Source: Gemmatimonadaceae bacterium (GTDB taxonomy: Bacteria; Gemmatimonadota; Gemmatimonadetes; Gemmatimonadales; Gemmatimonadaceae). From it: a stretch of DNA of 35,872 nucleotides. The position numbers and the translations under genes were made by a program. Under the pieces are notes generated by a model. The model was given only the letters and a program-made list of their open reading frames with translations, was not told the origin of the DNA and made no database searches. Each line of letters opens with the position of its first letter. The first letter of the stretch is position 1. Below, in pieces: positions 1-35,872 of the stretch. The stretch covers positions 1 through 35,872 of the forward strand of contig DASURJ010001091.1 in the NCBI GenBank assembly GCA_036280115.1, read 5' to 3'.

Positions 1-141
1 TGGAGGAGGATGCCTCGGGCTGTCCGCGCTCGCTGCGCCCGATTTCGTAGGCGCGCGTCACGGCGCTGAGCTGTTCCATCGGCGACATGCCCGGACGGAG
101 ACTGTGGAGGAGTTCCGAGAGGGCGGGGTTTTCGACGGCGG
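1..141. repeat. Left inverted terminal repeat (141 bp, perfect)
   Basis: Positions 1..141 are the exact reverse complement of 35732..35872. Identity breaks at 142 (g) versus 35731 (a). Confidence 0.95.
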
Positions 142-154
142 GTTGGTCGGTCAC
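1..154 (-). CDS. Outward-reading ORF, 5' portion only (left ITR copy), truncated by the window edge
   Basis: Candidate GTG at 154 with AAGGTG 5 nt upstream. It translates as VTDQPAVENPALSELLHSLRPGMSPMEQLSAVTRAYEIGRSERGQPEASSS... with no stop before position 1. Third-codon positions are mostly G/C. Inside the ITR it is identical to the right-end copy. Confidence 0.35.
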   Translation of the reverse strand, partial: MTDQPAVENPALSELLHSLRPGMSPMEQLSAVTRAYEIGRSERGQPEASSS

Positions 155-172
155 AGATTCACCTTGCCCCAC

Positions 173-190
173 CCTGACATTCGTGTCAGG
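173..190. promoter_or_regulatory. Perfect palindrome CCTGACA-ttcg-TGTCAGG (operator-like)
   Basis: A 7+7 bp inverted repeat with a 4-nt spacer. It lies in the intergenic region between the outward ITR ORF (start 154) and the inward HTH gene (start 270). An extra TGTCA half-site sits at 194..198. Confidence 0.5.
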
Positions 191-269
191 CTCTGTCAAG
201 GCGCGTCGGCGTCGTCCCACCCTCCAACCCATCTGGCTTCCGGCGACCGACGCGCCTGCTTGGATCAAC

Positions 270-473
270 ATGGCAGATTCCCACACGATGCGAGTTCGGG
301 CACAGCGTCTCGTCATGGCGGACGTTGCGCGACTCACCCGCGCCGGCTCGAGCGCGCGCCAGATTGCGGAGGCGCTTGGGTGCTCCGCGAGGACGGTGCA
401 CAGGTTGCGGGCTCTGACACGGATGTCAGGGGTCACCAAGCGCGGCACGCCGAAACTGTCGAGGAAAGCGTGA
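270..473 (+). CDS. Small helix-turn-helix DNA-binding protein (Hin/IS-transposase-type HTH), left terminal paralog
   Basis: In-frame ATG at 270 within track ORF 87..473; ATGs at 288 and 315 are alternative starts. Motif RLTRAGSSARQIAEALGCSARTVHRLRA. It is a paralog of the gene at 35410..35568. Confidence 0.6.
   Translation: MADSHTMRVRAQRLVMADVARLTRAGSSARQIAEALGCSARTVHRLRALTRMSGVTKRGTPKLSRKA
414..429. promoter_or_regulatory. Second copy of palindrome CTGACA-cgga-TGTCAG
   Basis: Same half-sites and same 4-nt spacing as 173..190. It lies inside the 3' end of the HTH gene. Confidence 0.4.
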
Positions 474-501
474 TGGCATGGGGAGTGCAGGGGGAGGGGG
501 G

Positions 502-624
502 ATGAGCAAGTGGCTGAATGTTTACGAGGTCGATGGCGGCGGTTGGGTGCGCGAGGTTTTCGCGCTCGGCGAATGGTACACCGTCGGCGTTTACGGGTCG
601 CGAGCCGCAGCGATGCGTGGCTGA
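502..624 (+). CDS. Hypothetical small protein (40 aa)
   Basis: ATG at 502 directly preceded by GGGGGAGGGGGG (SD-like). Translation MSKWLNVYEVDGGGWVREVFALGEWYTVGVYGSRAAAMRG, stop TGA at 622..624. It is too short to appear in the ORF track. Confidence 0.35.
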   Translation: MSKWLNVYEVDGGGWVREVFALGEWYTVGVYGSRAAAMRG

Positions 625-670
625 CTCAGCTTTCCGGAACGCCGTCCGTTGTGACCGGGAAGGAGAACCG

Positions 671-946
671 ATGAACTGGACATCACCCGCAACCCGCGAA
701 GAGGCAACCGCCCTCGCCCTCGAACACCAGCGCGGACACCTAATCCGCCGCCGGACCGCGACCGGCTACGAGTACGCTCCCGCCGCGGAATTCGAAGACC
801 GGTGGGAGGAGATTCAGCAAGACTTGGCAGCGCTCCGGTCGGTCTGCATCGACTGCACGCTGCCGCACGATCGATGCGACTGTCCCGACGTGGTTCAGGC
901 GCGCGAGGTTGATGAGGCGTATGAGCAACAGGAGGCGATGCGATGA
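671..946 (+). CDS. Hypothetical protein (91 aa), Cys-containing C-terminus
   Basis: Internal ATG of track ORF 518..946, preceded by GGAAGGAGAACCG (AAGGAG SD). The stop overlaps the next start (ATGA at 943..946). Confidence 0.6.
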   Translation: MNWTSPATREEATALALEHQRGHLIRRRTATGYEYAPAAEFEDRWEEIQQDLAALRSVCIDCTLPHDRCDCPDVVQAREVDEAYEQQEAMR

Positions 947-1167
947 GTTCCCATCCCGTAGCCCAAGGCGCCCGGGCGCTGAAACTGGGCGCGACCACGA
1001 ACGAGGCGTTCCGCGCGGCAGGGTACGCACTCACGCCCATCCAAGAGCACTCCGCGGCTCGCTTGGTCGTCCGAAGCGGCCGCATCGTCGGCCGGACGCG
1101 GAACGCTTCGCACGCGAACGACTGGCTGGAACGACTCGCCCGAAAGTTGGGATACCATGCTGACTGA
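943..1167 (+). CDS. Hypothetical protein (74 aa)
   Basis: Track ORF. The start is coupled to the upstream stop. Amino-acid composition looks protein-like. Confidence 0.5.
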   Translation: MSSHPVAQGARALKLGATTNEAFRAAGYALTPIQEHSAARLVVRSGRIVGRTRNASHANDWLERLARKLGYHAD

Positions 1168-1375
1168 ATCCGAGCGCCACATGTACGGCCGCGGACGCTA
1201 CGGCGAAGTCGCGAACCTCGTAGATATCTGCATGGCCGTGTCGAGTCGTCCGTGCGCTGGCGGCTCGTGTAGCGAGGACCACGCGTGCCCGAGGCATTTT
1301 CGCGCGCCGGAAGTCGCGGACAGGCTGGCCAGGATGCGAGCACGCAGACGCGAACGCTTTTCGGAGAAGAAGTGA
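1157..1375 (+). CDS. Hypothetical protein (72 aa), Cys-rich
   Basis: Track ORF. It overlaps its neighbours by a few nt on both sides. Confidence 0.45.
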   Translation: MLTESERHMYGRGRYGEVANLVDICMAVSSRPCAGGSCSEDHACPRHFRAPEVADRLARMRARRRERFSEKK

Positions 1376-1935
1376 TGCGAGACGAGCTTCGGATCATCAA
1401 CGCGCTGTCCGCCCACGTAGACGAGTTCGAGCGAGCCGCAGCGCATTACGAGATGCGCGGCCTGGCAAAGCCTGAGGCTAGGATGCGCAAAGAGGCTGTG
1501 GCAACGCGCGAGCTGCGGGACAGGTTACTGAATGCGCCACGCGAGACTGGAGAAGTGATGCGAGACAAGGACGAAAGGGTTAGGGCCGGAGACTACAAAC
1601 GCCTCGACTGGGAGGTGACTTGCCCGTTTTGCGGCGCCAGTCCTGGGCAGTCGTGCGGGCGAGATCGTGGGCCCGAGGACCCTTCGCACCGGGAGCGCAT
1701 TCACTACATGGCAGACAAATCGCGCGGAGAATCCGACCTCCGCGCCGCGAAAGAGCGGTTGGGGGCGTGGTGGCTGGCGGACTACTCCGAGCGATCGGTA
1801 AATCACATTCAGTTGAGCGGAGGGTCACACGGAATCTACCTTTACACCGATCGTTTGCGTGGAGCCGATTGCTATGAGGTGCGCGAAACCGAAGCCGCCG
1901 CCATCCTTGCGGCGCTGGAAAAGGTGAATGCGTGA
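1375..1935 (+). CDS. Hypothetical protein with CPFCGASPGQSC...H zinc-ribbon-like motif (186 aa)
   Basis: Internal ATG at 1375 of track ORF 1285..1935 overlaps the upstream TGA. Motif CPFCGASPGQSCGR followed by HRERIH. Confidence 0.55.
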   Translation: MRDELRIINALSAHVDEFERAAAHYEMRGLAKPEARMRKEAVATRELRDRLLNAPRETGEVMRDKDERVRAGDYKRLDWEVTCPFCGASPGQSCGRDRGPEDPSHRERIHYMADKSRGESDLRAAKERLGAWWLADYSERSVNHIQLSGGSHGIYLYTDRLRGADCYEVRETEAAAILAALEKVNA

Positions 1936-3446
1936 AAAAGCTCTGCCTCATCGACCTGTCCGGTCTGTTTTGGGCGAACTGGCACGCGACGGAGGCGCAT
2001 CCCGTTGGCGAGGCGTTCTCTCGGACCGTCGAGCAAGTGGCACGCGCAACCGATGGTCACGACCTTGCCGCGGTCTGTTGCGACGCGCCGCCGTACAAGC
2101 GTCGTGAGATTTTGCCCGAGTACAAGGCGCAGCGCGAGAAGCATCCCCCGCAGGCGCTCCAACAGCTCGACGACGTGAAGGCGCGGCTGGCGAGCGACGG
2201 CATGCTCGTCTGGTCCGTCCCGGGCTACGAGGCCGACGACGTGATCGCTACGGCAACACGGCTCGCGCTTGCTGAAGAGCAGCCGATGGATGTCACGATT
2301 TTCTCAGGCGACAAGGACTTGCTTCAGCTCGTCCAGTACGGAGTCCGGTGCGTCTCGCCGCGCTCCGGCGAGTACGACGAGGCGCGTGTTCTTGAGAAGA
2401 TGGGCGTCCCGCCGCGCCTCGTCGGCGACCTACTCGCGCTCATGGGCGACGACTCGGACAACATCCCGGGGCTTCCTGGCGTCGGCCCGAAGACGGCGGC
2501 GGAGTTGCTCAAGCAATTCGGGTCGCTCGAAAGCGTGCTCGCTGGCGCCCTGGAGATCAAGCGAGACAAGCTGCGCGAGACCGTGATTGCCGGAGCCCAG
2601 ACGGCGCGCCTCGCTCGCCGATGCGTCGAGCTGGAAACCGACGTGCCGATAAGCATCGACGACCTGTTCGCTGAGCGCAAAGCTGTGCCCCAAAAACCAC
2701 CGGAGGATTTTTCCAAAATGGACGACGAAGACATCGGGCAGAACGACGCGGCCTGGAGCGCGGCTCCGCCAGCGGACGACGCCGACACGGAGCCGCCGGA
2801 AAGCTCGCCGACAGACCCGGCACCGCCTCCGAAGGGCGAGCCTACTCCGCCCACGCGCTCGCTCGCCAGGGTAGATGCAACGGCGCTCGCGCGCCCCGTG
2901 TCGTTCGAGTTGGGCCTAGAGCCGCAGAGCATCGGCGGGGCGTACACGCTCGCGCGCGGCATGTTCCAGTCGGGTCTCTATTCCAAGTTCAAGAAGGCCG
3001 AAGCGATCTGGGCCGTGATGATTCGCGGTCGTGAGATGGGCATCGGCGCGCTGACGGCACTCGACTGTTTCCACGTCGTCGAGGGCAAGCCGGCGATCCA
3101 TGCGCACCTCGTCGTTGCGCGCGCGAAGGCGCACCCCGATTGCGAGTATTTTCAGCTCGTAGACTCTGGCCCGGACTTCGCGGAGTACGAGACGAAGAAC
3201 AAGCGGAACCCGAAGCCCACGCGGCTCAAGTACACGCTGGCGGAAGCGAAGCTCGCGGGCCTGTGCCCGCAGAATCCGCGCTCGACGCCGGTGCTCAACG
3301 AAAACGGCAAGGACAAGCGCGGCAACTGGGAGAAGCGCCCAAGCGAGATGATCCGTAAAACGTGCGCGACGCAACTGGCGCGCATCGAATACCCGGACGC
3401 GGCCCTCGGTCTCTACGCCGTGGAGGAATTGACCGATGACGACTGA
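1932..3446 (+). CDS. 5'-3' exonuclease (FEN / Pol I N-terminal type) fused to a C-terminal RecT-like single-strand annealing domain
   Basis: GTG start overlaps the upstream TGA (GTGA). The N-terminal ~250 aa carry LIDLSGLFWANWHA, EADDVIATA, FSGDKDLLQLV and the H3TH motif GDDSDNIPGLPGVGPKTAAELL. A Pro/Asp/Glu-rich linker follows. The C-terminal ~190 aa carry MIRGREMGIGALTALDCFHVVEGKPAIHAHL and GNWEKRPSEMIRKTCATQLARIEYPD, which resemble RecT-family conserved blocks. Confidence 0.75.
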   Translation: MKKLCLIDLSGLFWANWHATEAHPVGEAFSRTVEQVARATDGHDLAAVCCDAPPYKRREILPEYKAQREKHPPQALQQLDDVKARLASDGMLVWSVPGYEADDVIATATRLALAEEQPMDVTIFSGDKDLLQLVQYGVRCVSPRSGEYDEARVLEKMGVPPRLVGDLLALMGDDSDNIPGLPGVGPKTAAELLKQFGSLESVLAGALEIKRDKLRETVIAGAQTARLARRCVELETDVPISIDDLFAERKAVPQKPPEDFSKMDDEDIGQNDAAWSAAPPADDADTEPPESSPTDPAPPPKGEPTPPTRSLARVDATALARPVSFELGLEPQSIGGAYTLARGMFQSGLYSKFKKAEAIWAVMIRGREMGIGALTALDCFHVVEGKPAIHAHLVVARAKAHPDCEYFQLVDSGPDFAEYETKNKRNPKPTRLKYTLAEAKLAGLCPQNPRSTPVLNENGKDKRGNWEKRPSEMIRKTCATQLARIEYPDAALGLYAVEELTDDD

Positions 3447-3900
3447 ACTCACGCCCGAGCTCGAGCAGGAGATGCGGGAGGCGGTGGCACGCAAAAGCGC
3501 ACGCTCTAGACTGAGCTCGGCGATTCGCGATTACTCCCTTGCGTGCATGGCGCTGCGCGACAACCCCATGGGTACCAGGGGCGTCTCGGCGCGCCTCGAG
3601 AAGGCATCCGCTGCCGTGGAGCAGGACATCGGCGCGTATGTCATTGCCTGCGGCGGCAACACGGACGGACCCGCCGCGCTCACCCCCGAGCGCGTCTCTG
3701 CGTACCTGGCCGGGCTCGACGACGTTGCGTTTCTCGAGGTCTTGGCGGCGGGCGGAGAGCGTACCTCGGTCGCCTGCAAGCGGGTAACCGAACAGCTACG
3801 AGAGAGTGAGGCCGAACTCGACCGCCTCCGGGCGGAGAATGCGGAGCTGGCGCGCGACAAGGATCTGCTCATCCGCCAGCTGGAGAACAGGACGCCATGA
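3436..3900 (+). CDS. Hypothetical coiled-coil protein (154 aa)
   Basis: Track ORF that overlaps the upstream stop. The C-terminus is heptad-like (LDRLRAENAELARDKDLLIRQLE). Confidence 0.55.
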   Translation: MTTELTPELEQEMREAVARKSARSRLSSAIRDYSLACMALRDNPMGTRGVSARLEKASAAVEQDIGAYVIACGGNTDGPAALTPERVSAYLAGLDDVAFLEVLAAGGERTSVACKRVTEQLRESEAELDRLRAENAELARDKDLLIRQLENRTP

Positions 3901-4271
3901 CCGCCCGCCTAACCGACGCTGAGGTTGGCTCGATCATCGAGTGGGCGGAGCGCTTCCTCAGTACGCCGCACGTCCTTTCGAACGCAGAAACCGAACGCTA
4001 CCACCTCGCCCTCGAAGTCCGCGAACTGCGGGCGCGCGTTGTGGAGCTTGAAAGCGAGACCGCGAACATGCGCAAGGTCTGGGTCGAGAACCAGTCGCAC
4101 CGGGCGAGCCTGGAATCTGAACTCGTCACGGCACAGAGGCGCGTTGTGGAGCTGGAGGGGGTGAATGCATCGCTGAAGGCGCGCGGCAATCAGGCGTACG
4201 AAGCGGGACTTCGCGACGGCAAGGTCGAAGAGGCGGCGCGCGAACTCGAGAGGAAGCGTTATGGCTGCTGA
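3897..4271 (+). CDS. Hypothetical coiled-coil protein (124 aa)
   Basis: Track ORF with an ATGA overlap to the upstream gene. Confidence 0.55.
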   Translation: MTARLTDAEVGSIIEWAERFLSTPHVLSNAETERYHLALEVRELRARVVELESETANMRKVWVENQSHRASLESELVTAQRRVVELEGVNASLKARGNQAYEAGLRDGKVEEAARELERKRYGC

Positions 4272-4449
4272 ACCGCCCCAGCCGTCTCCCGAGGACTTCG
4301 AGAGGGCGACCGTCTACGCGCGCCGTTACTTGGCGAAGCATGATCGCGGTCCGCTCAAAGGCGAGGTCGAGACGTGGCGCTCGGATCGCGCGGTTCGTTG
4401 GGTTACGGCCGACGCGGCGCGGAGTGAGCAGGAGGAGAAGGCGAAATGA
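4261..4449 (+). CDS. Hypothetical protein (62 aa)
   Basis: Track ORF, coupled to its neighbours. Confidence 0.45.
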   Translation: MAAEPPQPSPEDFERATVYARRYLAKHDRGPLKGEVETWRSDRAVRWVTADAARSEQEEKAK

Positions 4450-4760
4450 CCGACGAGAAGCTCAGGGAGGCGATTGCGCGCCTGTCCCACTACCTGGACG
4501 CTGAGCCGATCCCAATCGAAGACTCGCACCTCGTCCTCTCCGCCGCCTCGTCCTGGCTCAAGCTCGTGCCCGTCCGCGGCAACGAGGTCACGGAGGCGGG
4601 ATTGTACATCCTGCCATCCGAGGAGCTGTACCGGTTCAACGGGAAGCGGTGGCTTCGGCCGGACGGCGAAGGCGACATGGAGTATTGCGAGGCTCCGGAG
4701 TGGGCCATCCCGTGGGGCGCCCTCCCCGCCATTCCAAAGGAGACGACCGATGACCCCTGA
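4446..4760 (+). CDS. Hypothetical protein (104 aa)
   Basis: Track ORF with an ATGA overlap to the upstream gene. Confidence 0.5.
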   Translation: MTDEKLREAIARLSHYLDAEPIPIEDSHLVLSAASSWLKLVPVRGNEVTEAGLYILPSEELYRFNGKRWLRPDGEGDMEYCEAPEWAIPWGALPAIPKETTDDP

Positions 4761-5085
4761 ACCCTTCGGCCCCCGCCTGCGCCGGTTTCGGCTGAAGAGC
4801 GGCATGACGGAAGCGCAGCTCGGCGAGGCCGCATTCCCGGGCATGACCAACTCCGATGCGATGATCCGCAACATCGAGGACGGGACGCCCATTCCTCTAT
4901 CCTGGCTCGTCACCATCGCCGCCGCGCTGGACATCTCCACCGACGAGCTGCTGGGCGTAGAGAGTCCGGTGGTGCGGAGGCTGAGGGAGGCGTTGGATGC
5001 CGGTGGCGCCGGACCGCTCGACAACATCGACGCGAGCGCGGTTGGCTTCCTCCGGTCGCTCCTGCCTGAAAGCGAGCGCGGGTGA
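4750..5085 (+). CDS. XRE-family (Cro/CI-type) helix-turn-helix transcriptional regulator
   Basis: Internal ATG at 4750 of track ORF 4474..5085. The sequence FGPRLRRFRLKSGMTEAQLGEAA...IRNIEDGTPIPLSWLVTIAAALDISTDELLG matches the HTH_3 pattern. Confidence 0.75.
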   Translation: MTPEPFGPRLRRFRLKSGMTEAQLGEAAFPGMTNSDAMIRNIEDGTPIPLSWLVTIAAALDISTDELLGVESPVVRRLREALDAGGAGPLDNIDASAVGFLRSLLPESERG

Positions 5086-5360
5086 CGATGACTCGATGCG
5101 AATACGACGGGCACGAGCACGACGCCGAGAAGGAGTGCCCGTCCTGCCAACTGTACAGCGCGGCGGTCGCGGCGCAGGGTGCTGCCGCACAATCGCTCGC
5201 TGTTGCTCGCGGGGCCGACCCCGGCGCGCGAACCTGGCTCAATGAGTACGGAATCTTCGGACAGGTCGATGGCTCCTACGTCGAAGTCGGAACGCGGGAA
5301 GAGGCGGCGCCGTTTGTTGCGCTCACCGCCAATCCCCGCCGAAAGCGCCACCGCCGATGA
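5082..5360 (+). CDS. Hypothetical protein (92 aa) with a CPSC motif
   Basis: Track ORF with an ATGA overlap to the upstream gene. Confidence 0.5.
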   Translation: MTMTRCEYDGHEHDAEKECPSCQLYSAAVAAQGAAAQSLAVARGADPGARTWLNEYGIFGQVDGSYVEVGTREEAAPFVALTANPRRKRHRR

Positions 5361-5408
5361 GCTACCGAGCTGGCGTAGGCGCATCGATAGCGCTGGAGGA
5401 CACCCCCG

Positions 5409-5972
5409 ATGCCTAACTGCGACCGCTGCGGGCGGGAGAGGGCGGAGAGTCTGCTGGCGTGGAACCGCGAATCCTACTCTCGCGTCATGGCGGAAGACGA
5501 CCATGACAGATTGGCGGTCGGGCGAACATGTGCGCGCGACATGCCGAACCGTGGCGGATTCTACCCGGACAACGCGACATGGGACTGCGACCGCGCCACC
5601 GTCGCCCGACTCAAAATACTCGTCGCGGAAAAGGACGAGTGCATAACGCTGTATGCCGAGGAGAACGAGGAACTGAAGTCCACCATCGCCAAGCAGCAGG
5701 CCAGGATTGCGGAGTTGGAGACTGGCGTCGTCGCGAAAGTCCTCGCGCTCGGAGCGAAGATTGTCGAGCTCGAACGGGAGAACGCGGAGCTGAGGGCGGA
5801 TGTGGACGCGCTGGGAATCTGCCAGAAGTGCGACGGCTCCGGTGTTTACGAGCCAAGGTCGGCGCACTGGGACCGTGAGAACCAGCAGATCGTCATTCCG
5901 CAAAAGGGAACGTGCCAGGCCTGCTCCGGCACCGGCCGCGTCGAGAGGGCGCGGAGGTGGAGACCTACGTAG
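5409..5972 (+). CDS. Hypothetical coiled-coil protein with a C-terminal DnaJ-type CxxCxGxG zinc-finger pair
   Basis: GGAGGA lies 8 nt upstream of the ATG. The N-terminus has CDRCG, the middle is coiled coil, and the C-terminus has CQKCDGSG...CQACSGTG. It ends in TAG at 5970..5972. Confidence 0.6.
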   Translation: MPNCDRCGRERAESLLAWNRESYSRVMAEDDHDRLAVGRTCARDMPNRGGFYPDNATWDCDRATVARLKILVAEKDECITLYAEENEELKSTIAKQQARIAELETGVVAKVLALGAKIVELERENAELRADVDALGICQKCDGSGVYEPRSAHWDRENQQIVIPQKGTCQACSGTGRVERARRWRPT

Positions 5973-14307: not shown

Positions 14308-16103
14308 TGCTCCGGGGTCGCGCTGCCGGGCAGCGTTTCGAGGATGGGTTCGAGAGATTTCGGATCAGCCTGTAGGTCGTAGCGAACCGTATCAACGACG
14401 CGTCCGCGCGCCGCCGTCGCGACCTCGCCGAGCTTCGCATCCGCTCCGCCCAGGTCCACGATCGCCGTCGGGTCACCGAGCCACTCTTCGCGGAAGTCGA
14501 GCGAGCCTTTGTCGAGCGTGCCGAGGTTCGCGCCTTGCTTCAGACCGAGGAACAGATCGGCGGCCGCGCCTTCGATCTGCCCGCGGACCTTCGGATCGGT
14601 CTTCGCGCCGGGGAGCGAGCGCAGGTGCCGCAGGCGTTGCGCCGCGTTCGAGATCCGCGCGTCCACCTTGATTTGCTCTTGAGCCTTCCTGGCCTGGTCC
14701 GCGGACCGTGCGTAACCGTAGCTCCCGTCGGGGAGGCGCACGGCCAGCGCGCGCTCTTCGGGCTTCACGGCGCCACCACCAATCTGCGCGTACTGCGGCG
14801 GGGCGTACTGGAAGTTTTCTTGGACGATCCGGTCGTTTTCGAGCTGCGAAAGCTTGAGCAAAACGTCGCCCTTTTGCGCGCGTAGGGCCGCGGACTGGAG
14901 TGCCGCAGCTTGCATGTATTCCTGGGTGCCGATTTCGCGCGCGGCGTTTTCGGTGAGCTTCGCAGCCGCGTCGAGCCGGCGGGCCTCGAGATCGAGCGCC
15001 GCCGCTTCGGGCGTGCCGTAGAGCGCCACAGCCTCGGCGTAGTCTCCGCGCGCCTGCTCGCCCTTCGCGATCGACGCCTCGTAGCGCGCGCGCTGGTCGG
15101 CGACTTCCTGCGTGATCCCTTGCATGACCATGTCGTAGCCGGGGTTATTCGCGCGCCCCTGAAGGCCCTGGAGGTAGCCGCCGAGCGCCATCTGAATGGC
15201 CGCGCCGATCTGCTGGAACGTGGACTTGCTCGCCCAGACCTCTTTCGCGCTCTGGGGCGTGAGCTTCGCCGATTCGGCGTCGCGCTGCTGGATCTGCGCC
15301 TGCCGCTCGCGCAGCATCTTGTCCACGGCGACGCGGCGCTGTTCCTCGCGCTTGATGGCCTCTTGCTCGCGGCGGATGTTTTCCTGTCGCGCTTCGATGT
15401 CGCGTTGCTGGAGCTGGACTATGTTCTGGGTCTGGCGGTCGTGTACGTCCTCGGCGAGCGTGCCCTGCGTCTGCGCGAGGAACGTCTCCTCGGGCGATAG
15501 CCCGGCCGCTTCGGCGCGCTGCTGAGCGCCCGGGCTCCAATCGTCGCCCGTGAGAAGCGTCCGCGCTTCCTCGGGAACTTCCTGTCCCGGAACGCGCGTG
15601 AAGGACGAGCGAATGTCGCCGCCCTTGGAGAGCTGGACGATTCGACCGCCTCCGCGCCCGCGGGATTGGCGCGCCGCCATCGCCGCTTGGTCCGGGTCCG
15701 GCACTTCGCCCGTCTTGACCCGTGGCTCGGCCGGCGCGGCGCTCTTCGGCGCCGTTGGTGTCGGCGCGCCCGCGCCCTGCGAATCGGTGCCCTGTCGTCC
15801 CGGGTCGCCCTCCTCGGAGCCTCGTCCCCCGGATCCGCCCGAGCCCACGTCGCGCGGCGGAGCGGGCACCGGAGCGACGGGAGCGGGCTTCACGTCGGGG
15901 ACGTTGCCGACCGCGCCGGAGCCGTTCGCTCCCTCGTTCAGCGGCGTGTCGCCCGTGAACGCGAGCGCCCCACGCGCTGGGTCGAAGAGCGACGGGCGCT
16001 CTTCGTGGCCCGCCTGCTGGGCGACCGCGACGGGCATGGGGATCACGCGCCCGGGCGCGACCTCCACGTCAGCGAGACCGTCAGGCCGCAGAGCGTACGC
16101 CAA
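14304..16103 (-). CDS. Large coiled-coil virion protein with a low-complexity Pro/Gly N-terminus (internal virion protein candidate, 599 aa)
   Basis: Long ORF. The annotated start is TTG at 16103 and overlaps the upstream gene by 23 nt. Downstream GTG and ATG starts are possible. Confidence 0.5.
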   Translation of the reverse strand: MAYALRPDGLADVEVAPGRVIPMPVAVAQQAGHEERPSLFDPARGALAFTGDTPLNEGANGSGAVGNVPDVKPAPVAPVPAPPRDVGSGGSGGRGSEEGDPGRQGTDSQGAGAPTPTAPKSAAPAEPRVKTGEVPDPDQAAMAARQSRGRGGGRIVQLSKGGDIRSSFTRVPGQEVPEEARTLLTGDDWSPGAQQRAEAAGLSPEETFLAQTQGTLAEDVHDRQTQNIVQLQQRDIEARQENIRREQEAIKREEQRRVAVDKMLRERQAQIQQRDAESAKLTPQSAKEVWASKSTFQQIGAAIQMALGGYLQGLQGRANNPGYDMVMQGITQEVADQRARYEASIAKGEQARGDYAEAVALYGTPEAAALDLEARRLDAAAKLTENAAREIGTQEYMQAAALQSAALRAQKGDVLLKLSQLENDRIVQENFQYAPPQYAQIGGGAVKPEERALAVRLPDGSYGYARSADQARKAQEQIKVDARISNAAQRLRHLRSLPGAKTDPKVRGQIEGAAADLFLGLKQGANLGTLDKGSLDFREEWLGDPTAIVDLGGADAKLGEVATAARGRVVDTVRYDLQADPKSLEPILETLPGSATPEQ

Positions 16104-18693
16104 GCGCCGCTAGCTCCCGTTCGAGTTCGTCGATCCGGCGCTGCTGTTCGCCCTGCGCGCCCAAGGCAACGAGACCAGCCCGTTGCCCGTCCACGCCCAG
16201 CATTCCGTTCGGTTGCTGCCTCACGATCGGAGCTGCGTCCGTTCGGAGAATGTCTTGCGCCATCGGCCCGACCTGACGCCCCGGCGCGCCGCCGGGCATG
16301 TTCGGGTCCTTGTACGCGTAGGAGAAATTCGACAGGCCGCGAAGGTCCGTCTGGCTGGTCTTCGGGCCCGCGCGAGGGACGCTTCGAATGTCCTCGGCAT
16401 CACCGATGTCCACCTCCGTGCTCGACAGGTTCTCCGCGTCGCCGATGTCCACCTTGATGCGAGGCTTGCCCTTGGGCTTCGGCTTCGCGCGGTAGGCCGG
16501 AGCAGTCGCGTCGCGATAGGACGGGCCTGCCTCGCGCCGAATCGACTCGGGCGGCTCGCCGGGGCGCTCGGGGCGCGGCGCTTCGCGGAGCGGCCCACTG
16601 CCGGCGGGGATGCCCGTCTGATTCTCGTAGTACCGACCGATGCCTAGTTCCGCGAACCGAGGACTGATTTCGCCCGTCGCCATTCCGCGCGCGGCGTCCT
16701 GGTAGGCAAACTCTTCGGCTTCCAGCGCCGCCTGCTTTTTGGCCCGCTCGTCGCTCGTGACGTAGCTCGAATTGACGGGCTGGAATCCAGGGCTCTGATA
16801 CGTGGGAATCGGCGGTGGGGTGAGCTGGTCTTGGATCTGACCGTACGCGCTCGAGAGCATTCCTAGCATCCCCGGCGCAGTTCCGCCGCCCGCAGCATCC
16901 GACACGGATTTGCCGTGCTGAACGTTCGCCTGCTCGGCCGCGAACTGCGGCATCGCCGCGTCCGCGCCGGCCACCATGCTCGCGTCCTGCTGATAGCCCG
17001 CGGTCGGGCTGTTCATGCCGGAATAGGCGCCCGGCGGCCCGATGTCCGTTTTCGCGTTCACGTCGGAGAGCGCGCCTACGAGCAGACCGAGCCCGGCCGC
17101 GTCGCGGCTCTGGTCGTACGCCGCATTCGCCATCCCCGCCTGCAACCCCTGGCCGCTCTTGAGCGCCTCGAGTTGCATGTTGAGGTTCGCCTGGTTCGTG
17201 ACGGTTTGCAGGCCCATCCCCTGGTACGCCTGATCGGCGCCGTAACCCTGGGCCGCAGCCTGATTCGCGAGCCCGCCCATCTGCGCGTTGTAGCCGAGGC
17301 CCGTCGCCATCGCCTGGTTTCCGAGGCCCTGAGCGCCGAGCGCGAATTGCTGCCCCTGCGCGACGGACTGGTTCCCGAGGCCGATGCCCGCGAGCGCGGC
17401 CTGATCGCCGGCAGCCTGCCGACCCGCGGCGATCTGCTGCATGTTCGTGGCGTAGGCGTCGTTCATGCCGGCTTGCTGGAGCGCCTGGCCAGACACACCA
17501 AGAGCCGTCTGCGATTCGATGCCCTGCTGCTGATTCGCGAGCCCGCCCGCCTGCCCGAGCGCCGCGGTTTGCCCCTGGAGCGCACCGATGTCCTGCCCGC
17601 GCGCGGCAGTCTGCAAACCGCCCTGCGCGGATAGCGCGTTGGTCGCCTGCCCGAGCGCGCCCGTCTGGCCCATGAGGGCTTGGATGTCCTGTCCGCGCGC
17701 CTGCCCGAGGGCCTGGGTCTGCGCGGAGAGGCCCTGGATGTCCTGCGAACGCGCGGTGCCGAGCGCGCCCGTTTCGAGGCCCATCGCCTGGAGTTGCCGA
17801 TTGCGGAAGTCGTCGGACTCCTTCGCGCGGAGCAGGGCCATCGACTGATTCGTGTCCTGCTGCTGCGCCGCGTTCGCGAAAAGCGCCTGCCTTTCCGCGC
17901 CCGCGTTCGCGCCGCCGCGCCCGGAGCGCGCCATCGCGAGGTTCGACGCCATCGCGTTCTGCGCGCCCTGGCGGAGCTGCACCTCGGCCATCGAGGCGCC
18001 AGGTCCCTGCTGGTAGAAGTCGCGGATCGCTCCCGCGTTGCCCTGTTGCGCCGCTGTCGTCGTGCCCGCGACTCCGAGCGCCTGAGCGTTCGCCGTCTGC
18101 GCCTGCGGGGTCTTCGCGGCCGCGCCAAGCGCCGAAGCGTTCGAGCCGATGGCGCCCGCGTTGGCACCGAGGGCCCCCGCCGTCTGCGCCTGCGCTTGGT
18201 TGTTCGCGGCAGCAGCGCCTAGCGCGCCCGCGTTGCCCATGAGCCCTTGCTGCGCGCCCTGGCTCGTCTGCGCCGCCTGCTGCGCGCCAGCGAGGTTCAC
18301 CGTCGGCGCCTGCCGCCCTTGCGCGGTCATCGCCTGGTTTTGCAGATTCGCGGCCTGTTGGCCCTGAGCGCTCTGGATGCCGCCGCCGGCCGCCTGCGCC
18401 ATGTCCGCGCGCTGGTTCCCCTGCGCGAGCCCGGCGCCGCCCATCGCGTCCTGAGCGCCCGCGCGACCCGCCATCGCCGCCGCGCCCGCCGCGCCCTGCT
18501 GGGCGAATCCGCCCGCCGCCGCCTGCCGTTCCGCGTTCGCAGCTTGGCCCTGCTTCCACAGCTCCTTCTCCATGCGCTTGGCCCAAGCGCCTTCCATGTT
18601 GTGCCCGCCGATGTCGGACGCGTTCTCATCGATCTTCGGCGCCTTCACCTCGTCCTGGCTGAAGATATCGACGATGGGGTCGTAGATGGCCAT
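16081..18693 (-). CDS. Gln/Ala/Gly-rich fibre-like protein with a C-terminal intramolecular chaperone (Peptidase_S74-like) domain
   Basis: About 500 aa of degenerate QAxG repeats. Motifs LSDVNAKTDI and TSDERAKKQ resemble the S-D-x-R-x-K cleavage context. The C-terminus reads FSYAYKDPNMPGGAPGRQVGPMAQDILRTDAAPIV...GMLGVDGQRAGLVALGAQGEQQRRIDELERELAAL, typical of the endosialidase-chaperone domain. Confidence 0.65.
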   Translation of the reverse strand: MAIYDPIVDIFSQDEVKAPKIDENASDIGGHNMEGAWAKRMEKELWKQGQAANAERQAAAGGFAQQGAAGAAAMAGRAGAQDAMGGAGLAQGNQRADMAQAAGGGIQSAQGQQAANLQNQAMTAQGRQAPTVNLAGAQQAAQTSQGAQQGLMGNAGALGAAAANNQAQAQTAGALGANAGAIGSNASALGAAAKTPQAQTANAQALGVAGTTTAAQQGNAGAIRDFYQQGPGASMAEVQLRQGAQNAMASNLAMARSGRGGANAGAERQALFANAAQQQDTNQSMALLRAKESDDFRNRQLQAMGLETGALGTARSQDIQGLSAQTQALGQARGQDIQALMGQTGALGQATNALSAQGGLQTAARGQDIGALQGQTAALGQAGGLANQQQGIESQTALGVSGQALQQAGMNDAYATNMQQIAAGRQAAGDQAALAGIGLGNQSVAQGQQFALGAQGLGNQAMATGLGYNAQMGGLANQAAAQGYGADQAYQGMGLQTVTNQANLNMQLEALKSGQGLQAGMANAAYDQSRDAAGLGLLVGALSDVNAKTDIGPPGAYSGMNSPTAGYQQDASMVAGADAAMPQFAAEQANVQHGKSVSDAAGGGTAPGMLGMLSSAYGQIQDQLTPPPIPTYQSPGFQPVNSSYVTSDERAKKQAALEAEEFAYQDAARGMATGEISPRFAELGIGRYYENQTGIPAGSGPLREAPRPERPGEPPESIRREAGPSYRDATAPAYRAKPKPKGKPRIKVDIGDAENLSSTEVDIGDAEDIRSVPRAGPKTSQTDLRGLSNFSYAYKDPNMPGGAPGRQVGPMAQDILRTDAAPIVRQQPNGMLGVDGQRAGLVALGAQGEQQRRIDELERELAALGVRSAA

Positions 18694-21600: not shown

Positions 21601-21726
21601 CTTCGCCACCCGTGACAGCTTTGTCATGCGGGCGTTGCTCAGGGTCTTCAAAAGTCCCTGCGGAGCGACCTTGGCCTCGATCTTGCTATCCTGGCCTTTC
21701 TGGAACGGAAGCTGGATCAGCGCCAT
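18697..21726 (-). CDS. Large tail protein, tentatively tail tubular protein B / nozzle (T7 gp12-like), 1009 aa
   Basis: Internal ATG at 21726. The N-terminus MALIQLPFQKGQDS...KRPG resembles my recollection of the T7 gp12 N-terminus (MALISQSIKNLKGG...KRP). Size and position fit. The similarity was not verified by search. Confidence 0.5.
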   Translation of the reverse strand: MALIQLPFQKGQDSKIEAKVAPQGLLKTLSNARMTKLSRVAKRPGAVAKGLTGQSGSAVMSASLPVQAVLPSTAGLAIAKYTDAEDRVYGFGSDSRWLTHGTLPPFEAPERLPGPAAWGGGSVTEVSSAYANGLICTVFASSTDVSAIVYDVATRTIRDMESLDSGTVIRKARVVACGNSFVACWAENTSAESIRCRSFDTTAAGGTWSALQDMTNGLTLLAAQYDFDICSYSSTQIAVAFRKSSTELSLILWTFGAGTLADSVDFTADGVGLSVLGATGENIAVAWRDASDDDVKIQTFDSTLTSVAGPTTIASTTAEGPVALLRGTSSVVHVLWTARTSGDARSWIRSVNTTSHALGTTTVVLHGMGLASKPVALTSDLAYVWGTTDADFQRNYCLCSLEFTSSSPIRGIHATLARDSALHWSDAAHLAEAPIFTLSGQSYIMWGHPRILGDTVETGAAPFVSCATALAKLRGTARLQSAFASGLRYIANSLLVCFDGLLAAEAGYSVPPQLISIADAGGGNLGDGDYQYVMTLRTYAGNNLVLSQVSDPFTVTAGGGSTQTLGIYAQAPERMTDYQRSVAGTTGSVRIDLWRTLVDEAIFYRVSVPSGLDASSGGFTDNIADATARLNPVLYTQGARGGLSGPLQNDTPPPCRSIWAGKDRVICGGLEDPSEVQWSKLFFPGEAVHFSNHRSFRARIQGRVGCVAVLDDVWTVFATDAIFIISGAGPDDTAQGGFDEPRRLSSQVGCNEWRSLVETPQGLMFQGNDGEIHLLPRGFGPVAWVGRNVSDVMASYPVVTSATLVPEEHIVAFTVTNSAGTEGRVLCYDYTQLDEQGIGLWSVDTIAGGVAHISGALWDGKLALATTSAIDVMTPGTYSDRTSTWYGVTIETHPLKPAGMFGDGRVRMVGVMAEYRGDCGCDIRIAVNDSQTFSSAHSFVDATAALGATVGDQVLRGWQIPYQKGGSYALRISETQDGSTLTEGLAFVGVALDYRPRREQGRPIPPVNR
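21613..21626. promoter_or_regulatory. Third copy of the TGACA-N4-TGTCA palindrome (TGACA-gctt-TGTCA)
   Basis: Same half-sites and spacing as 173..190 and 414..429. It lies about 100 nt inside the 5' end of the nozzle gene and about 140 nt upstream of the + strand moron start at 21765. Confidence 0.4.
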
Positions 21727-21764
21727 TCTTGGCCCGCCTCCCCGCAACCCTTCAGAGTGACCCC

Positions 21765-22097
21765 ATGAAAAAGACCTTCCTGCTCCTCATGCTCTCCGGC
21801 TGCTGCGCCGACCCGTCCGATACCCCGGAACCATCCTGCGTAGCGACCGAAAGCGAATCGCTCTCCGTCATCGACGAAACCGAATGCGCCTGGTACGGCA
21901 GCTCCCCGGGAACCGAGGGCGCGCTCATCGAGATCCGCTACCCGCGCACCGACGGAGCGTGCCCTGTCGCGTGCGGCTGGGACGGATTCTGCGCCGGCTA
22001 CGCCGACGACCTCTGCTTCCCGTGCCCAGCTGGCATCGAGGTGTTCGTGCCGCTCCAAGATGGCGGCGTGACCATCGAATGCCCCGAGGCCGAGTAA
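21765..22097 (+). CDS. Cys-rich secreted lipoprotein (moron; superinfection-exclusion candidate)
   Basis: Internal ATG at 21765. MKKTFLLLMLSGC carries a canonical lipobox (LSGC). The mature part has 9 further Cys residues. It is encoded opposite to the flanking late genes. Confidence 0.65.
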   Translation: MKKTFLLLMLSGCCADPSDTPEPSCVATESESLSVIDETECAWYGSSPGTEGALIEIRYPRTDGACPVACGWDGFCAGYADDLCFPCPAGIEVFVPLQDGGVTIECPEAE

Positions 22098-22310
22098 ATG
22101 CGCGTCCTGATCGTGCGCCTCACGAAGGCCGAACTCGACCGGTTCGCCGATCGCTTCGCCACTACGAACGGCAGCGCGGCCGCACTCGTCGGAATCCTCG
22201 AACGGATGCCCGGCTTTTTCTCCCTGCGGAAACGCGCAGAGGGTCGGCGCATCCTGATCGTTCCGAATCGGCAGCGCGGCGAGAAGCGCATGGAGGAGGG
22301 CGAGCTGTAG
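22098..22310 (+). CDS. Small ribbon-helix-helix-like protein (70 aa)
   Basis: The ATG immediately follows the lipoprotein TAA. The N-terminus MRVLIVRLTKAELDRFADRFATTNGSAAALVGILERM fits a beta-strand/helix/helix (CopG/MobC-like) pattern. It ends in TAG. Confidence 0.45.
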   Translation: MRVLIVRLTKAELDRFADRFATTNGSAAALVGILERMPGFFSLRKRAEGRRILIVPNRQRGEKRMEEGEL

Positions 22311-27929: not shown

Positions 27930-28171
27930 GCTTGGCCTTTCTCTTCGGGCGGTCCCAACCGGACCACGAGTTCCTTGCACAGGCGCATGGCACGATCGAG
28001 CGTCCAGGCGGCATCCAGCATGGCACCGCGGGTAGCGCGCTCGAGTAGCAGGCTGTCCCTGCCCATCTCGTATGCGTTGCGCATGGCTTCTTCGGGGGTG
28101 GTTTCGTTTTCGCGGACCTGGCGGGCCAGATCCATCAGATTGGAGTCGTCTTGGTTCATGTGTGTTTTCAT
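27926..28171 (-). CDS. Hypothetical small protein (81 aa)
   Basis: Track ORF with ATGA overlaps to both portal and scaffold genes. Confidence 0.45.
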   Translation of the reverse strand: MKTHMNQDDSNLMDLARQVRENETTPEEAMRNAYEMGRDSLLLERATRGAMLDAAWTLDRAMRLCKELVVRLGPPEEKGQA

Positions 28172-31790: not shown

Positions 31791-31857
31791 GCCGCAGCCC
31801 CAATCCGACGTGAAGATCGACTCCACGGTCAGACGGGGAAGTCCGTTCGCGCGGAGT

Positions 31858-35409: not shown

Positions 35410-35568
35410 TCACTTCTTGCGAACGGTCTTCCCGCTCCGGACTTTAGCCCTCGCGCGCCAGCGACTGACGGTCCGCACGGTACAGCGCAGGCTGACCGCG
35501 ATTTCGTCCAGCGTGTACCCGTCGCGAGTCATCTTCGCCACGCGCTCCAGCATCGTCCGTTCGTTCAT
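35410..35568 (-). CDS. Small helix-turn-helix DNA-binding protein (52 aa), right terminal paralog
   Basis: Hand translation: MNERTMLERVAKMTRDGYTLDEIAVSLRCTVRTVSRWRARAKVRSGKTVRKK. It shares 13 of 26 identical residues with the left HTH core by manual alignment. It is below the track size cutoff. Confidence 0.55.
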   Translation of the reverse strand: MNERTMLERVAKMTRDGYTLDEIAVSLRCTVRTVSRWRARAKVRSGKTVRKK

Positions 35569-35589
35569 CCTTGACCAAGGCTCCCACAA

Positions 35590-35601
35590 CTGTCATGACA
35601 G
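35590..35601. promoter_or_regulatory. Perfect 12-bp palindrome CTGTCA-TGACAG (operator-like)
   Basis: It has the same TGTCA/TGACA half-sites as the left-end palindromes, but abutting and in the opposite relative order. It lies in the 45-nt gap between the divergent right HTH gene (35568) and the outward ORF (35614). Confidence 0.45.
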
Positions 35602-35613
35602 CGCAAGGACCAA

Positions 35614-35872
35614 ATGGACCCAGAGGACATCGAACACAACGACCACATGGCGTACATTGAGGAGGCTCGGGCCGAGAACGCAGCGTATGAGCTGAGACAG
35701 GCCTGTGGAGGCCAAACGGACCCCCAAATGACCGCCGTCGAAAACCCCGCCCTCTCGGAACTCCTCCACAGTCTCCGTCCGGGCATGTCGCCGATGGAAC
35801 AGCTCAGCGCCGTGACGCGCGCCTACGAAATCGGGCGCAGCGAGCGCGGACAGCCCGAGGCATCCTCCTCCA
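35614..35872 (+). CDS. Outward-reading ORF, 5' portion only (right copy), truncated by the window edge
   Basis: ATG at 35614 with AAGGA 4 nt upstream; ATG at 35728 is an alternative. There are 86 codons with no stop up to the last base: MDPEDIEHNDHMAYIEEARAENAAYELRQACGGQTDPQMTAVENPALSELLHSLRPGMSPMEQLSAVTRAYEIGRSERGQPEASSS. GC3 is high. Confidence 0.4.
   Translation, partial: MDPEDIEHNDHMAYIEEARAENAAYELRQACGGQTDPQMTAVENPALSELLHSLRPGMSPMEQLSAVTRAYEIGRSERGQPEASSS
35732..35872. repeat. Right inverted terminal repeat (141 bp, perfect)
   Basis: Exact reverse complement of 1..141. Confidence 0.95.

What the first reader, a model, noticed from the sequence alone, without database searches (positions are those of the whole stretch)
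142..473. Mirror-image terminal modules: ITR, palindromic operator-like site, then an inward-facing paralogous mini-HTH gene at each end
Each terminus has the same layout: an outward ORF in the ITR, a short gap containing a TGACA/TGTCA palindrome (173..190 on the left, 35590..35601 on the right), and a small HTH gene reading inward (270..473 + and 35410..35568 -). The two HTH proteins are paralogs, with 13/26 identical residues over the core (TRAGSSARQIAEALGCSARTVHRLRA versus TRDGYTLDEIAVSLRCTVRTVSRWRA). Each heads one of the two convergent transcription arms. A duplicated and diverged end-proximal DNA-binding protein paired with its own palindrome suggests a dedicated system for end recognition or early-switch control. 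I cannot match it to a described system.
Basis: partly seen in the sequence, partly recalled or inferred. Interest (0 to 1): 0.75.

Follow-up and report, generated by a model that had tools for sequence, protein, structure and literature searches.

The report
Assembly-edge repeat, not phage termini
The 141-base "terminal repeat" is the overlap between this contig and a neighbouring 8.9-kb contig of the same phage, so the two small DNA-binding genes sit next to ordinary two-way promoter regions inside a larger genome, not at its ends.

Summary
There is a perfect 141-bp inverted repeat, an outward ORF inside it, TGACA/TGTCA palindromes, and one small HTH_23 gene reading inward at each end (43% identity over 37 aa).

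The ends are not genome termini.
- 141 is the usual maximum k of the MEGAHIT assembler.
- The outward ORF has no stop codon within the window.
- A Logan contig from run SRR25158508 (L032, 8,930 bp) starts exactly at the inner edge of the repeat. It carries the ORF on for 57 more codons, then runs through the phage's replication module.
- The assembly graph joins this contig, inverted, to both ends of the 35.6-kb core.

The HTH genes lie outside the repeat. HTH-L is closer to mycobacteriophage proteins (59%) than to HTH-R, so a recent in-genome duplication is not supported.

TGACA-N4-TGTCA is truly enriched: 3 sites against 0.01 expected, one conserved in an 82%-identical relative. The TGACA boxes also fit a promoter-like pattern, TGACA-N17-CAAGG, that points at the flanking genes.

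Best reading: ordinary small phage regulators at two divergent promoter regions. End recognition is refuted. Whether the 8.9-kb segment is really present twice in inverted orientation remains open.

The parts
1..141 (-). Left copy of the 141-bp repeat. It is identical to the first 141 nt of contig L032 (segment E) and codes residues AVENP...EASSS of the outward ORF.
35732..35872 (+). Right copy of the 141-bp repeat, also identical to the first 141 nt of L032.
2..154 (-). ORF-L. Probable GTG start at 154 with AAGGTG 5 nt upstream. It runs off the window and is 108 aa when completed from L032. It is the first gene of a 4-gene outward operon.
35614..35871 (+). ORF-R. ATG at 35614 (alternative start 35728). 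It runs off the window and is 143 aa (or 105 aa) when completed from L032. From AVENP onward it is the same protein as ORF-L.
162..201 (.). 40-bp symmetric box cluster, CCTTG-N8-TGACA-N4-TGTCA-N8-CAAGG, in the 115-bp divergent intergenic region. It holds the 174-189 palindrome and two face-to-face TGACA-N17-CAAGG motifs, one pointing at ORF-L and one at HTH-L.
270..473 (+). HTH-L, 67 aa. It matches HTH_23 and phrog_664, has three predicted helices, shows atypical codon usage, and is the first gene of the + strand gene set.
415..441 (+). Second TGACA-N4-TGTCA site (415-428), inside the 3' end of HTH-L. A CAAGC box follows at N17, pointing at the next genes (478/502). It is 240 bp from the first site.
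35410..35568 (-). HTH-R, 52 aa. It matches HTH_23 and phrog_664, has three predicted helices, and is the first gene of the long - strand (structural) gene set.
35569..35601 (.). Right box cluster in the 45-bp divergent region: CCTTG-N2-CAAGG (35569-35580) and the back-to-back TGTCATGACA (35591-35600). On the - strand it reads TGACA-N17-CAAGG, abutting the HTH-R start.
21613..21626 (.). Third TGACA-N4-TGTCA site, in the 5' coding part of the 1009-aa gene and about 140 nt upstream of an opposite-strand lipoprotein gene. It is conserved base for base in relative L023 and is written with rare ACA and TCA codons.

Best explanation
The window is one assembly unitig: the 35.6-kb unique core (structural genes plus a recombination module) of a tailed phage whose genome is at least 44.5 kb.

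The 141-bp 'ITR' is the k-mer overlap (k = 141) with the neighbouring contig E (L032, 8.9 kb). The assembly graph attaches E, in opposite orientations, to both ends of the core.

The 'outward ORF in the ITR' is the 5' part of the first gene of a four-gene operon that continues into E. Behind that operon lies the replication module: a DnaA_C-type HTH protein, a DnaC/IstB-like ATPase and a zinc-finger protein.

HTH-L and HTH-R are ordinary small three-helix HTH_23 DNA-binding proteins of a kind common in actinophage early regions. Each is the first gene of an operon transcribed divergently from a copy of the four-gene operon.

The TGACA/TGTCA boxes lie in these two-way control regions. They look like -35-type promoter elements set 17 nt from a CAAGG box, and probably double as operators. 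Inferred mechanism: a dimeric HTH protein binds the boxes, occludes RNA polymerase and sets expression in both directions. HTH-L is the best candidate for TGACA-N4-TGTCA, and HTH-R for the abutted TGTCATGACA. The site at 21613 would bring an opposite-strand lipoprotein gene under the same control.

Shown: the anatomy, the continuation of the DNA, the domain assignments, and the motif enrichment and conservation. Inferred: who binds what, and the direction of regulation.
For: The ends are not termini.
- The repeat is exactly 141 bp, and 71 papers pair MEGAHIT with k-max 141.
- The ORF has no stop within the window.
- Protein P0022 begins at AVENP, exactly at the repeat edge, and runs 57 aa beyond the window.
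- Its contig L032 (same run, SRR25158508) starts at the repeat edge. Its first 141 nt are identical to both window ends, and it runs 8,930 bp.
- L001, a k=31 contig of the right arm, stops exactly 30 nt into the repeat.

E is phage early DNA: DnaA_C 1e-21, IstB-like and Phage_zn_bind_8 hits.

The window is a tailed phage with a large terminase subunit and a portal protein. It has no recognised replication genes of its own.

The HTH assignments rest. Homologues in Che9d and Gordonia phage Mariokart lie in the middle of early regions.

Motifs: TGACA-N4-TGTCA, 3 sites against 0.01 expected. Site 3 is identical in the 82%-identical relative L023 although neighbouring codons differ. TGACA-N17-CAAGG has 3 perfect hits against 0.10 expected, all in the two divergent regions and each oriented toward a gene, plus a one-mismatch copy at 415.
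Against: - No binding or transcription data exist.
- The generic sigma-70 scan found no promoters at either end, and CAAGGN is a poor -10 element.
- The CAAGG box is common (83 copies), and the bipartite pattern was noticed after the fact.
- For HTH-R the motif abuts the ATG, which does not fit simple promoter geometry.
- No relative covering either junction could be fetched, so conservation of the arrangement is untested.
- The graph topology is not explained by a single-copy circular genome. Both core ends have E-start as their only successor, and E is unbranched for 8.9 kb.
Confidence: 0.65

Rival explanations
1. The 8.9-kb segment E really is present twice in one molecule, as a large inverted repeat flanking the 35.6-kb core. 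That gives a genome of about 53 kb or more, either linear with long terminal inverted repeats or circular with a chloroplast-like repeat pair. On this reading the two HTH modules are the diverged inner remains of a repeat that once reached further. They would then be true old paralogues, each now controlling its own copy of the repeat-borne operon.
For: - At k=141, each end of the core runs into E-start as its only successor. Neither junction was pruned, so both are abundant (inferred).
- The k=31 contig L032 is unbranched for 8,930 bp, and L001 stops at k-1 into it.
- Faint similarity continues about 8 codons past the perfect repeat (QTDPQMT|AVENP against VTDQP|AVENP).
- Both sides share the same layout, the same HTH family and the same TGACA-N17-CAAGG boxes.
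Against: - No depth or read-pair data are available.
- Long inverted repeats are not a known feature of terminase-packaged tailed phages (own knowledge).
- Core plus one copy of E is 44.5 kb, matching the 42-44 kb contigs of distant relatives.
- In distant relative L003 the DnaA_C-like gene lies 1.8 kb upstream of, and divergent from, the exonuclease/RecT gene. That orientation is not the one the left junction predicts.
- HTH-L is closer to mycobacteriophage proteins than to HTH-R and has foreign codon usage.
- A second graph branch at 468 hints at variant arrangements near the left junction.
Confidence: 0.3
2. The 141-bp repeat is a true terminal inverted repeat of a linear genome, and the two HTH paralogues recognise the ends or their palindromes for replication or packaging.
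For: The repeat is perfect and the gene layout is mirrored.
Against: - DNA continues at least 8.9 kb past the window end.
- The repeat length equals the assembler's k.
- A coding ORF without a stop runs off both ends.
- No terminal protein or protein-primed polymerase was found, and the phage has a large terminase subunit.
- No TGACA palindrome lies inside the repeat or anywhere in E.
Confidence: 0.03
3. The palindromes are not operators. They are simply overlapping -35 hexamers (xTGACA, close to TTGACA) of divergent host-type promoters: face-to-face on the left and back-to-back on the right. The HTH proteins act elsewhere.
For: TGACA is 5 of the 6 bases of the canonical -35 hexamer. All three perfect TGACA-N17-CAAGG motifs use the canonical 17-nt spacing and point at genes. 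For ORF-L the geometry places a transcription start at the GTG, giving a leaderless mRNA (read directly from the sequence).
Against: - Site 3 (21613) has no CAAGG partner in either direction, yet it is conserved in L023 with rare codons.
- The exact N4 spacing recurs three times and no other spacing occurs. That fits a dimer binding site better than chance overlap of promoters.
- TGACA half-sites are depleted elsewhere in the window (22 against about 38 expected).
Confidence: 0.2
4. One of the two core-E junctions is not part of the main genome. It would come from a co-occurring variant or rearranged subpopulation, or from chimeric library molecules, so the mirrored picture is an artefact of collapsing two arrangements into one contig.
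For: - A k=31 branch lies immediately after HTH-L at 468-497 and is not explained by any repeat within the window.
- The 142-467 segment has atypical codon usage on both strands.
- Contigs of the closest relative, from two different samples, also break near the right end.
Against: - A two-variant mixture should also create branches at the core edges. That would have stopped the contig before it entered E, yet the contig includes 141 nt of E at both ends.
- Random chimeras do not assemble into a single clean junction.
Confidence: 0.15

Closest known systems
Small 'helix-turn-helix DNA binding' proteins of actinobacteriophage early regions (e.g. Mycobacterium phage Che9d gp66, Gordonia phage Mariokart gp48; Pfam HTH_23, phrog_664)
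   Same: They have the same domain family and a similar small size. HTH-L is 58.7% identical to the Che9d-type proteins over 46 aa, and HTH-R is 50% identical to Mariokart gp48 over 38 aa.
   Different: Those genes sit in the middle of early operons, not as the first gene next to a divergent promoter. Their targets are also unknown.
Lambda-type CI/Cro switch regions and other divergent promoter/operator units with autoregulating HTH proteins
   Same: A short intergenic region lies between divergent transcription units. Dyad-symmetric boxes overlap the -35-like elements, and an HTH gene is the first gene on one side.
   Different: The divergent partner is not a second repressor: the ORF has no HTH and no homologues. 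There is a single dyad per region rather than a tripartite operator. No integrase or lysogeny module was found.
k-mer-length terminal overlaps of de Bruijn graph contigs (MEGAHIT k=141), which appear as direct repeats on circular genomes
   Same: The repeat length equals k exactly. Identity is perfect and then drops abruptly. The neighbouring contig starts at the repeat edge.
   Different: Here the overlap is inverted, meaning that both contig ends lead into the same neighbour. This signals a real inverted repeat of at least 141 bp in the sample. The k=31 contig suggests it is up to 8.9 kb or more.
Terminal inverted repeats of protein-primed linear phages and plasmids (phi29, Cp-1, PRD1, actinobacterial linear replicons)
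   Same: Only the appearance of an inverted repeat at the two ends of the sequence record.
   Different: The repeat is not at the ends of a molecule. It is coding. No terminal protein or family-B polymerase was found, and the phage has a large terminase subunit.
Invertible segments flanked by inverted repeats within coding sequence (Mu G, P1 C; Gin/Cin/Hin)
   Same: The inverted repeat begins inside an ORF, so two different N-terminal parts are joined to the same downstream coding sequence.
   Different: No serine invertase was found. The HTH_7 resolvase match of HTH-L is below the cut-off. The repeat would be at least 8.9 kb rather than tens of bases. The variable parts are N-terminal and only 5-40 aa long.

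Membership tests
Genome-terminal inverted repeat of a protein-primed linear replicon | The repeat lies at the physical ends of the molecule | tested here: not met
   Contig L032 from the same sample continues 8,930 bp beyond the window end, starting exactly at the repeat edge. A k=31 contig stops k-1 nt into the repeat.
Genome-terminal inverted repeat of a protein-primed linear replicon | Terminal protein and protein-primed family-B DNA polymerase are encoded | tested here: not met
   Pfam and PHROGs scans of most ORFs of the window and of ten L032 ORFs found none. They found a large terminase subunit, a portal protein, a DnaA_C-type protein and an IstB-like protein instead. Many ORFs have no hit, so the absence is not absolute.
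Pfam HTH_23 / phrog_664 small DNA-binding proteins | Profile match above the curated cut-off | tested here: met
   HTH-L scores 31.9 bits and HTH-R 30.6 bits against a cut-off of 24.6. phrog_664 E-values are 1.3e-10 and 1.3e-7.
Pfam HTH_23 / phrog_664 small DNA-binding proteins | Three-helix helix-turn-helix fold | tested here: met
   AlphaFold2 models give three helices, with mean pLDDT 75.6 and 83.1. The best Foldseek matches are the DeoR DNA-binding domain on its operator, RcsB, and resolvase HTH domains, at TM 0.70-0.72 with weak E-values.
Pfam HTH_23 / phrog_664 small DNA-binding proteins | Sequence-specific DNA binding | not testable with these tools
   This needs EMSA or footprinting on 162-201, 415-428, 21613-21626 and 35569-35601.
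CI/Cro-type bidirectional genetic switch | Divergent transcription units separated by a short region carrying dyad-symmetric sites | tested here: met
   The intergenic regions are 115 bp and 45 bp and carry TGACA dyads.
CI/Cro-type bidirectional genetic switch | Two antagonistic repressors encoded on opposite sides of the operators | tested here: not met
   The divergent ORF (108-143 aa) has no HTH, no Pfam hit and no homologues among 1.8 billion representative proteins.
Site-specific invertible segment (Gin/Cin/Hin type) | An adjacent serine invertase gene and short crossover repeats | tested here: not met
   No recombinase domain was found. HTH_7 scores 22.0 bits, below the 23.8 cut-off, in a 67-aa protein with no catalytic domain. 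The repeat contig is unbranched for 8.9 kb.
Genome with a large inverted repeat pair (long TIR or chloroplast-like IR) | The same sequence is joined in opposite orientation to both ends of a unique segment | tested here: met
   This is met at the level of the assembly graph only. Both window ends carry the first 141 nt of L032, and the k=31 graph branches at the same point.
Genome with a large inverted repeat pair (long TIR or chloroplast-like IR) | Two-fold read depth of the repeat and single molecules spanning repeat-core-repeat | not testable with these tools

The most novel reading that the evidence does not exclude
A terminase-packaged tailed phage, possibly infecting Gemmatimonadaceae, carries its whole 8.9-kb replication module twice, as a large inverted repeat flanking the 35.6-kb core. 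The repeat boundary falls within the first codons of an operon, so each copy is driven from a different control region with its own diverged HTH regulator and TGACA boxes.
Probability: 0.3. Interest if true: 0.6.

Novelty: new member of a known kind. Interest (0 to 1): 0.3.

Why it matters
First, this is a caution for genome scans. A perfect inverted terminal repeat whose length equals the assembler's k, with an ORF running off the end, marks an unresolved repeat junction and not a complete linear genome. Completeness calls based on such ITRs, and any biology built on 'termini', would be wrong here. About 9 kb of the phage, including its replication module, lies outside the contig.

Second, the TGACA-N4-TGTCA and TGACA-N17-CAAGG boxes give a small, testable regulon in an otherwise unannotated phage lineage. 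It comprises two junction control regions and one lipoprotein gene.

Third, if the graph topology reflects one molecule, an 8.9-kb inverted repeat in a tailed phage would be unusual and worth a long-read check.

Tried and rejected
Searches that found nothing:
- Exact-pattern scans for the repeat in IMG/VR and JGI metagenomes, and for the first bases of E beyond the repeat in GTDB genomes.
- A word-index homology search with the 48-aa ORF fragment.
- tblastn of ORF-R against plasmids and phages.
- Searches for relatives in IMG/VR with the large terminase subunit and with the DnaC-like protein of E.

Relatives that did not help:
- IMG/VR relatives found with the exonuclease/RecT protein share only that gene, apart from one other window-gene match each in L002 and L003 and a DnaA_C-like match in L003.
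- The close relatives L023, L024 and L026 (76-82% identical large terminase subunit) break before reaching the HTH-R region. Their far ends could not be fetched.
- L028, L029 and L033 were too distant or uninformative.

Other negative results:
- The sigma-70 and terminator scan found nothing at either end.
- A sequence search of the PDB gave only designed repeat proteins.

Ideas considered and rejected:
- An IS or transposon insertion, because there is no target-site duplication at 141/142 versus 35731/35732 and no transposase.
- A hairpin-telomere fold-back, because that would join an end to its own complement, not to the other end.
- HTH-R as the small terminase subunit, because a 166-aa gene directly upstream of the large terminase subunit gene is the better candidate.

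Full report
**1. What the window is**

The window is 35,872 bp at 66% GC. PHROGs identifies a large terminase subunit (30303-31901, - strand) and a portal protein (28168-30141, - strand). Pfam identifies a 5'-3' exonuclease/RecT fusion (1932-3446, + strand), a phage zinc-finger protein (1285-1935) and a glycosyltransferase-TPR protein (32617-33726). It is therefore a terminase-packaged tailed phage.

A codon-usage model trained on the long genes gives a + strand gene set from 270 to 5972. Everything from 35568 down to 5965 is on the - strand, apart from a two-gene + strand cassette at 21729-22310. No replication, lysis or integration gene was recognised in the window. No close relative exists among deposited phages or in IMG/VR.

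**2. Checking the observation**

- Positions 1-141 and 35732-35872 are perfectly reverse-complementary. Identity collapses at base 142.
- The outward frame through the repeat has gene-like codon usage (+0.24 to +0.28 per codon). The inward frames are negative. The outward frame has no stop within the window.
- The palindromes are present as described: CTGACATTCGTGTCAG at 174-189 and CTGTCATGACAG at 35590-35601.
- Both small genes match HTH_23 above Pfam's cut-off and phrog_664. They align at 16/37 identities, E = 4e-9, and are each other's only relatives in the six-frame translation.
- AlphaFold2 gives three-helix bundles (pLDDT 75.6 and 83.1). These resemble operator-bound DeoR, RcsB and resolvase HTH domains.

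So the described features exist.

**3. The ends are not ends**

Four observations together are decisive.

(a) The repeat is exactly 141 bp, the standard largest k of MEGAHIT. Its default k list ends at 141 (own knowledge), and 71 papers pair MEGAHIT with 'k-max 141'. Unitigs of a k=141 graph overlap their neighbours by exactly one 141-mer.

(b) A Logan (k=31) contig from run SRR25158508, L001, is 100% identical to the right arm. It stops exactly 30 nt (k-1) inside the repeat, which is the signature of a graph branch at the repeat edge.

(c) An exhaustive HMMER search with the outward ORF found P0022, a 103-aa protein. Its first residue is the first codon of the repeat (AVENP...), and it continues for 57 residues beyond the window.

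(d) Its contig L032 (SRR25158508_63731, 8,930 bp) begins exactly at the repeat edge. Its first 141 nt match both window ends at 100%, and it shares nothing else with the window.

L032 first carries the rest of a four-gene outward operon. It then carries 19 genes pointing back toward the window. These include a DnaA_C-type HTH protein (1e-21), an IstB/DnaC-like Walker-A protein and a second Phage_zn_bind_8 protein. This is the missing early/replication module.

The genome is thus at least 35,590 + 8,930 = 44,520 bp. That is similar to the contigs of distant relatives, at 42-44 kb. Several L032 proteins are deposited at NCBI as 'MAG TPA ... Gemmatimonadaceae bacterium', which is a weak host hint from binning.

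**4. What the graph topology implies**

Both ends of the core run 141 nt into the start of E and stop there. So each end has E-start as its only surviving successor, and E-start has two comparably abundant predecessors. L032 is unbranched for 8.9 kb.

The simplest single-molecule reading is a core flanked by inverted copies of E, giving a genome of about 53 kb or more. Three observations argue against it:
- The size of relatives fits a single copy of E.
- In distant relative L003, the DnaA_C-like gene is divergent from, and close to, the exonuclease/RecT gene.
- A further k=31 branch lies at 468-497, right behind HTH-L, and is not explained by any repeat in the window.

Without read depth or long reads I cannot decide. 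I give the true large inverted repeat about 0.3. Either way, the 'termini' are junctions between the core and E.

**5. Are the HTH genes a duplicated pair?**

- Nucleotide similarity ends at the repeat edge, apart from faint similarity over about 8 codons of the ORF (QTDPQMT|AVENP against VTDQP|AVENP).
- HTH-L's best matches are Che9d-type proteins of cluster F mycobacteriophages (58.7% over 46 aa). HTH-R's best match is Gordonia phage Mariokart gp48 (50%). Both exceed the 43% identity between HTH-L and HTH-R.
- In those phages the genes are unremarkable members of early operons.
- HTH-L has negative codon-usage scores (-0.11 per codon), which suggests recent acquisition.

A recent in-genome duplication is therefore not supported. 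An old one, possibly an earlier and wider repeat, cannot be excluded.

**6. The DNA boxes**

TGACA-N4-TGTCA occurs three times (175, 415, 21613) against about 0.01 expected. No other spacing from 0 to 10 occurs. It is the most over-represented spaced 5-mer palindrome in the window (Poisson 1.6e-7 over 9,216 tests). TGACA/TGTCA pentamers are otherwise depleted (22 against about 38 expected).

Site 3 lies in the 5' coding part of the 1009-aa gene. It is written with the rare codons ACA and TCA and is identical in L023, a relative with an 82%-identical large terminase subunit, although flanking codons differ. It sits about 140 nt upstream of an opposite-strand lipoprotein gene (MKKTF...LSGC) that is also conserved in L023.

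The right-end site, TGTCATGACA, uses the same half-sites in the opposite order with no spacer.

Each TGACA box in the two intergenic regions is followed at exactly 17 nt by CAAGG, in the direction of a gene. There are three perfect hits against 0.10 expected: toward ORF-L, toward HTH-L and toward HTH-R. A one-mismatch copy at 415 points at the next genes.

The boxes therefore look like -35 elements of a set of related promoters arranged face-to-face (left) or back-to-back (right). They probably double as operators. E contains none of them. The generic sigma-70 scan found nothing at either end. CAAGG is also a common word (83 copies), so the promoter reading is provisional.

**7. Most likely mechanism**

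Each HTH protein is the first product of its operon. It faces a copy of the ORF operon across a 115-bp (left) or 45-bp (right) control region.

I infer that HTH dimers bind the TGACA dyads, overlap the -35 boxes, and thereby autoregulate and set expression of the divergent operon. The recognition helices are similar (CSARTVHRLRA and CTVRTVSRWRA), which fits the shared half-site. The different half-site geometry fits two proteins with different dimer arrangements.

Sites at 175 and 415 are 240 bp apart, about 23 helical turns. This would allow looping around the HTH-L gene, but that is speculation. The site at 21613 would tie the lipoprotein gene to the same regulator. None of the binding steps has been shown.

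**8. Comparison with known systems, and verdict**

This works like the common phage arrangement of a small autoregulating HTH protein at a bidirectional promoter/operator. By profile score and fold, the proteins are members of HTH_23/phrog_664.

It is not a member of the protein-primed terminal-repeat class, because the defining features were tested and not met. It is not a Gin/Hin-type invertible segment, because no invertase is present. It is not a CI/Cro pair, because the divergent partner is not a repressor.

The finding as framed, mirror-image terminal modules for end recognition, is not upheld. The ordinary regulatory reading is plausible. The remaining point of interest is the unresolved and possibly real 8.9-kb inverted repeat, which one read-mapping experiment would settle.

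Noticed in passing
L032:8206-8285 and L032:8742-8930: The box TGACGAAA recurs three times on one strand (8247, 8279, 8830), with related ACGAAA/CGAAATG copies nearby. It lies in the non-coding stretches on either side of the last gene of E, about 0.85-1.4 kb from the DnaA_C-type gene. It never occurs in the 35.9-kb window. This may be an iteron or origin region.
   Followed up: partly
window 21729-22310 (+): A two-gene cassette lies on the opposite strand inside the tail-gene block. The first product has a lipoprotein signal (MKKTFLLLMLSGC) and is 40% identical to the gene at the same place in relative L023. It looks like a moron or superinfection-exclusion gene.
   Followed up: partly
window 468-497: The Logan k=31 contig of the left arm (L027) starts at 468, directly after HTH-L, although no repeat in the window explains a branch there. 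The sample seems to hold an alternative sequence upstream of this point.
   Followed up: partly
window 1932-3446 (+): A single 504-aa protein combines a PolI-type 5'-3' exonuclease (N and SAM-fold domains) with a C-terminal RecT-family segment. The same full-length architecture recurs in three IMG/VR contigs at 36-50% identity.
   Followed up: partly
window 32617-33726 (-): A family-2 glycosyltransferase fused to TPR repeats sits among the small genes upstream of the terminase genes. It is conserved in relatives L023 and L026 at 56-75% identity.
   Followed up: no
window 17543-17756 (-): Three diverged 64-nt direct repeats, spaced 96 and 54 nt apart, lie inside the 870-aa gene (16081-18693). 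This is the kind of internal repeat seen in tape-measure or fibre proteins.
   Followed up: no
L032 (whole): Three proteins of this contig are deposited at NCBI as 'MAG TPA ... Gemmatimonadaceae bacterium' (HEX6051788, HEX6051792, HEX6051795). This hints at a Gemmatimonadota host by binning, whereas the HTH proteins' nearest phage relatives infect Actinobacteria.
   Followed up: no
L033:2709-3275: In a relative from another sample, the gene beyond the E-far nuclease-like gene is a GIY-YIG-like ORF (...YIGVTWDPLQRLRQH...) that is absent from this phage. The neighbourhood of the far end of E is variable.
   Followed up: no
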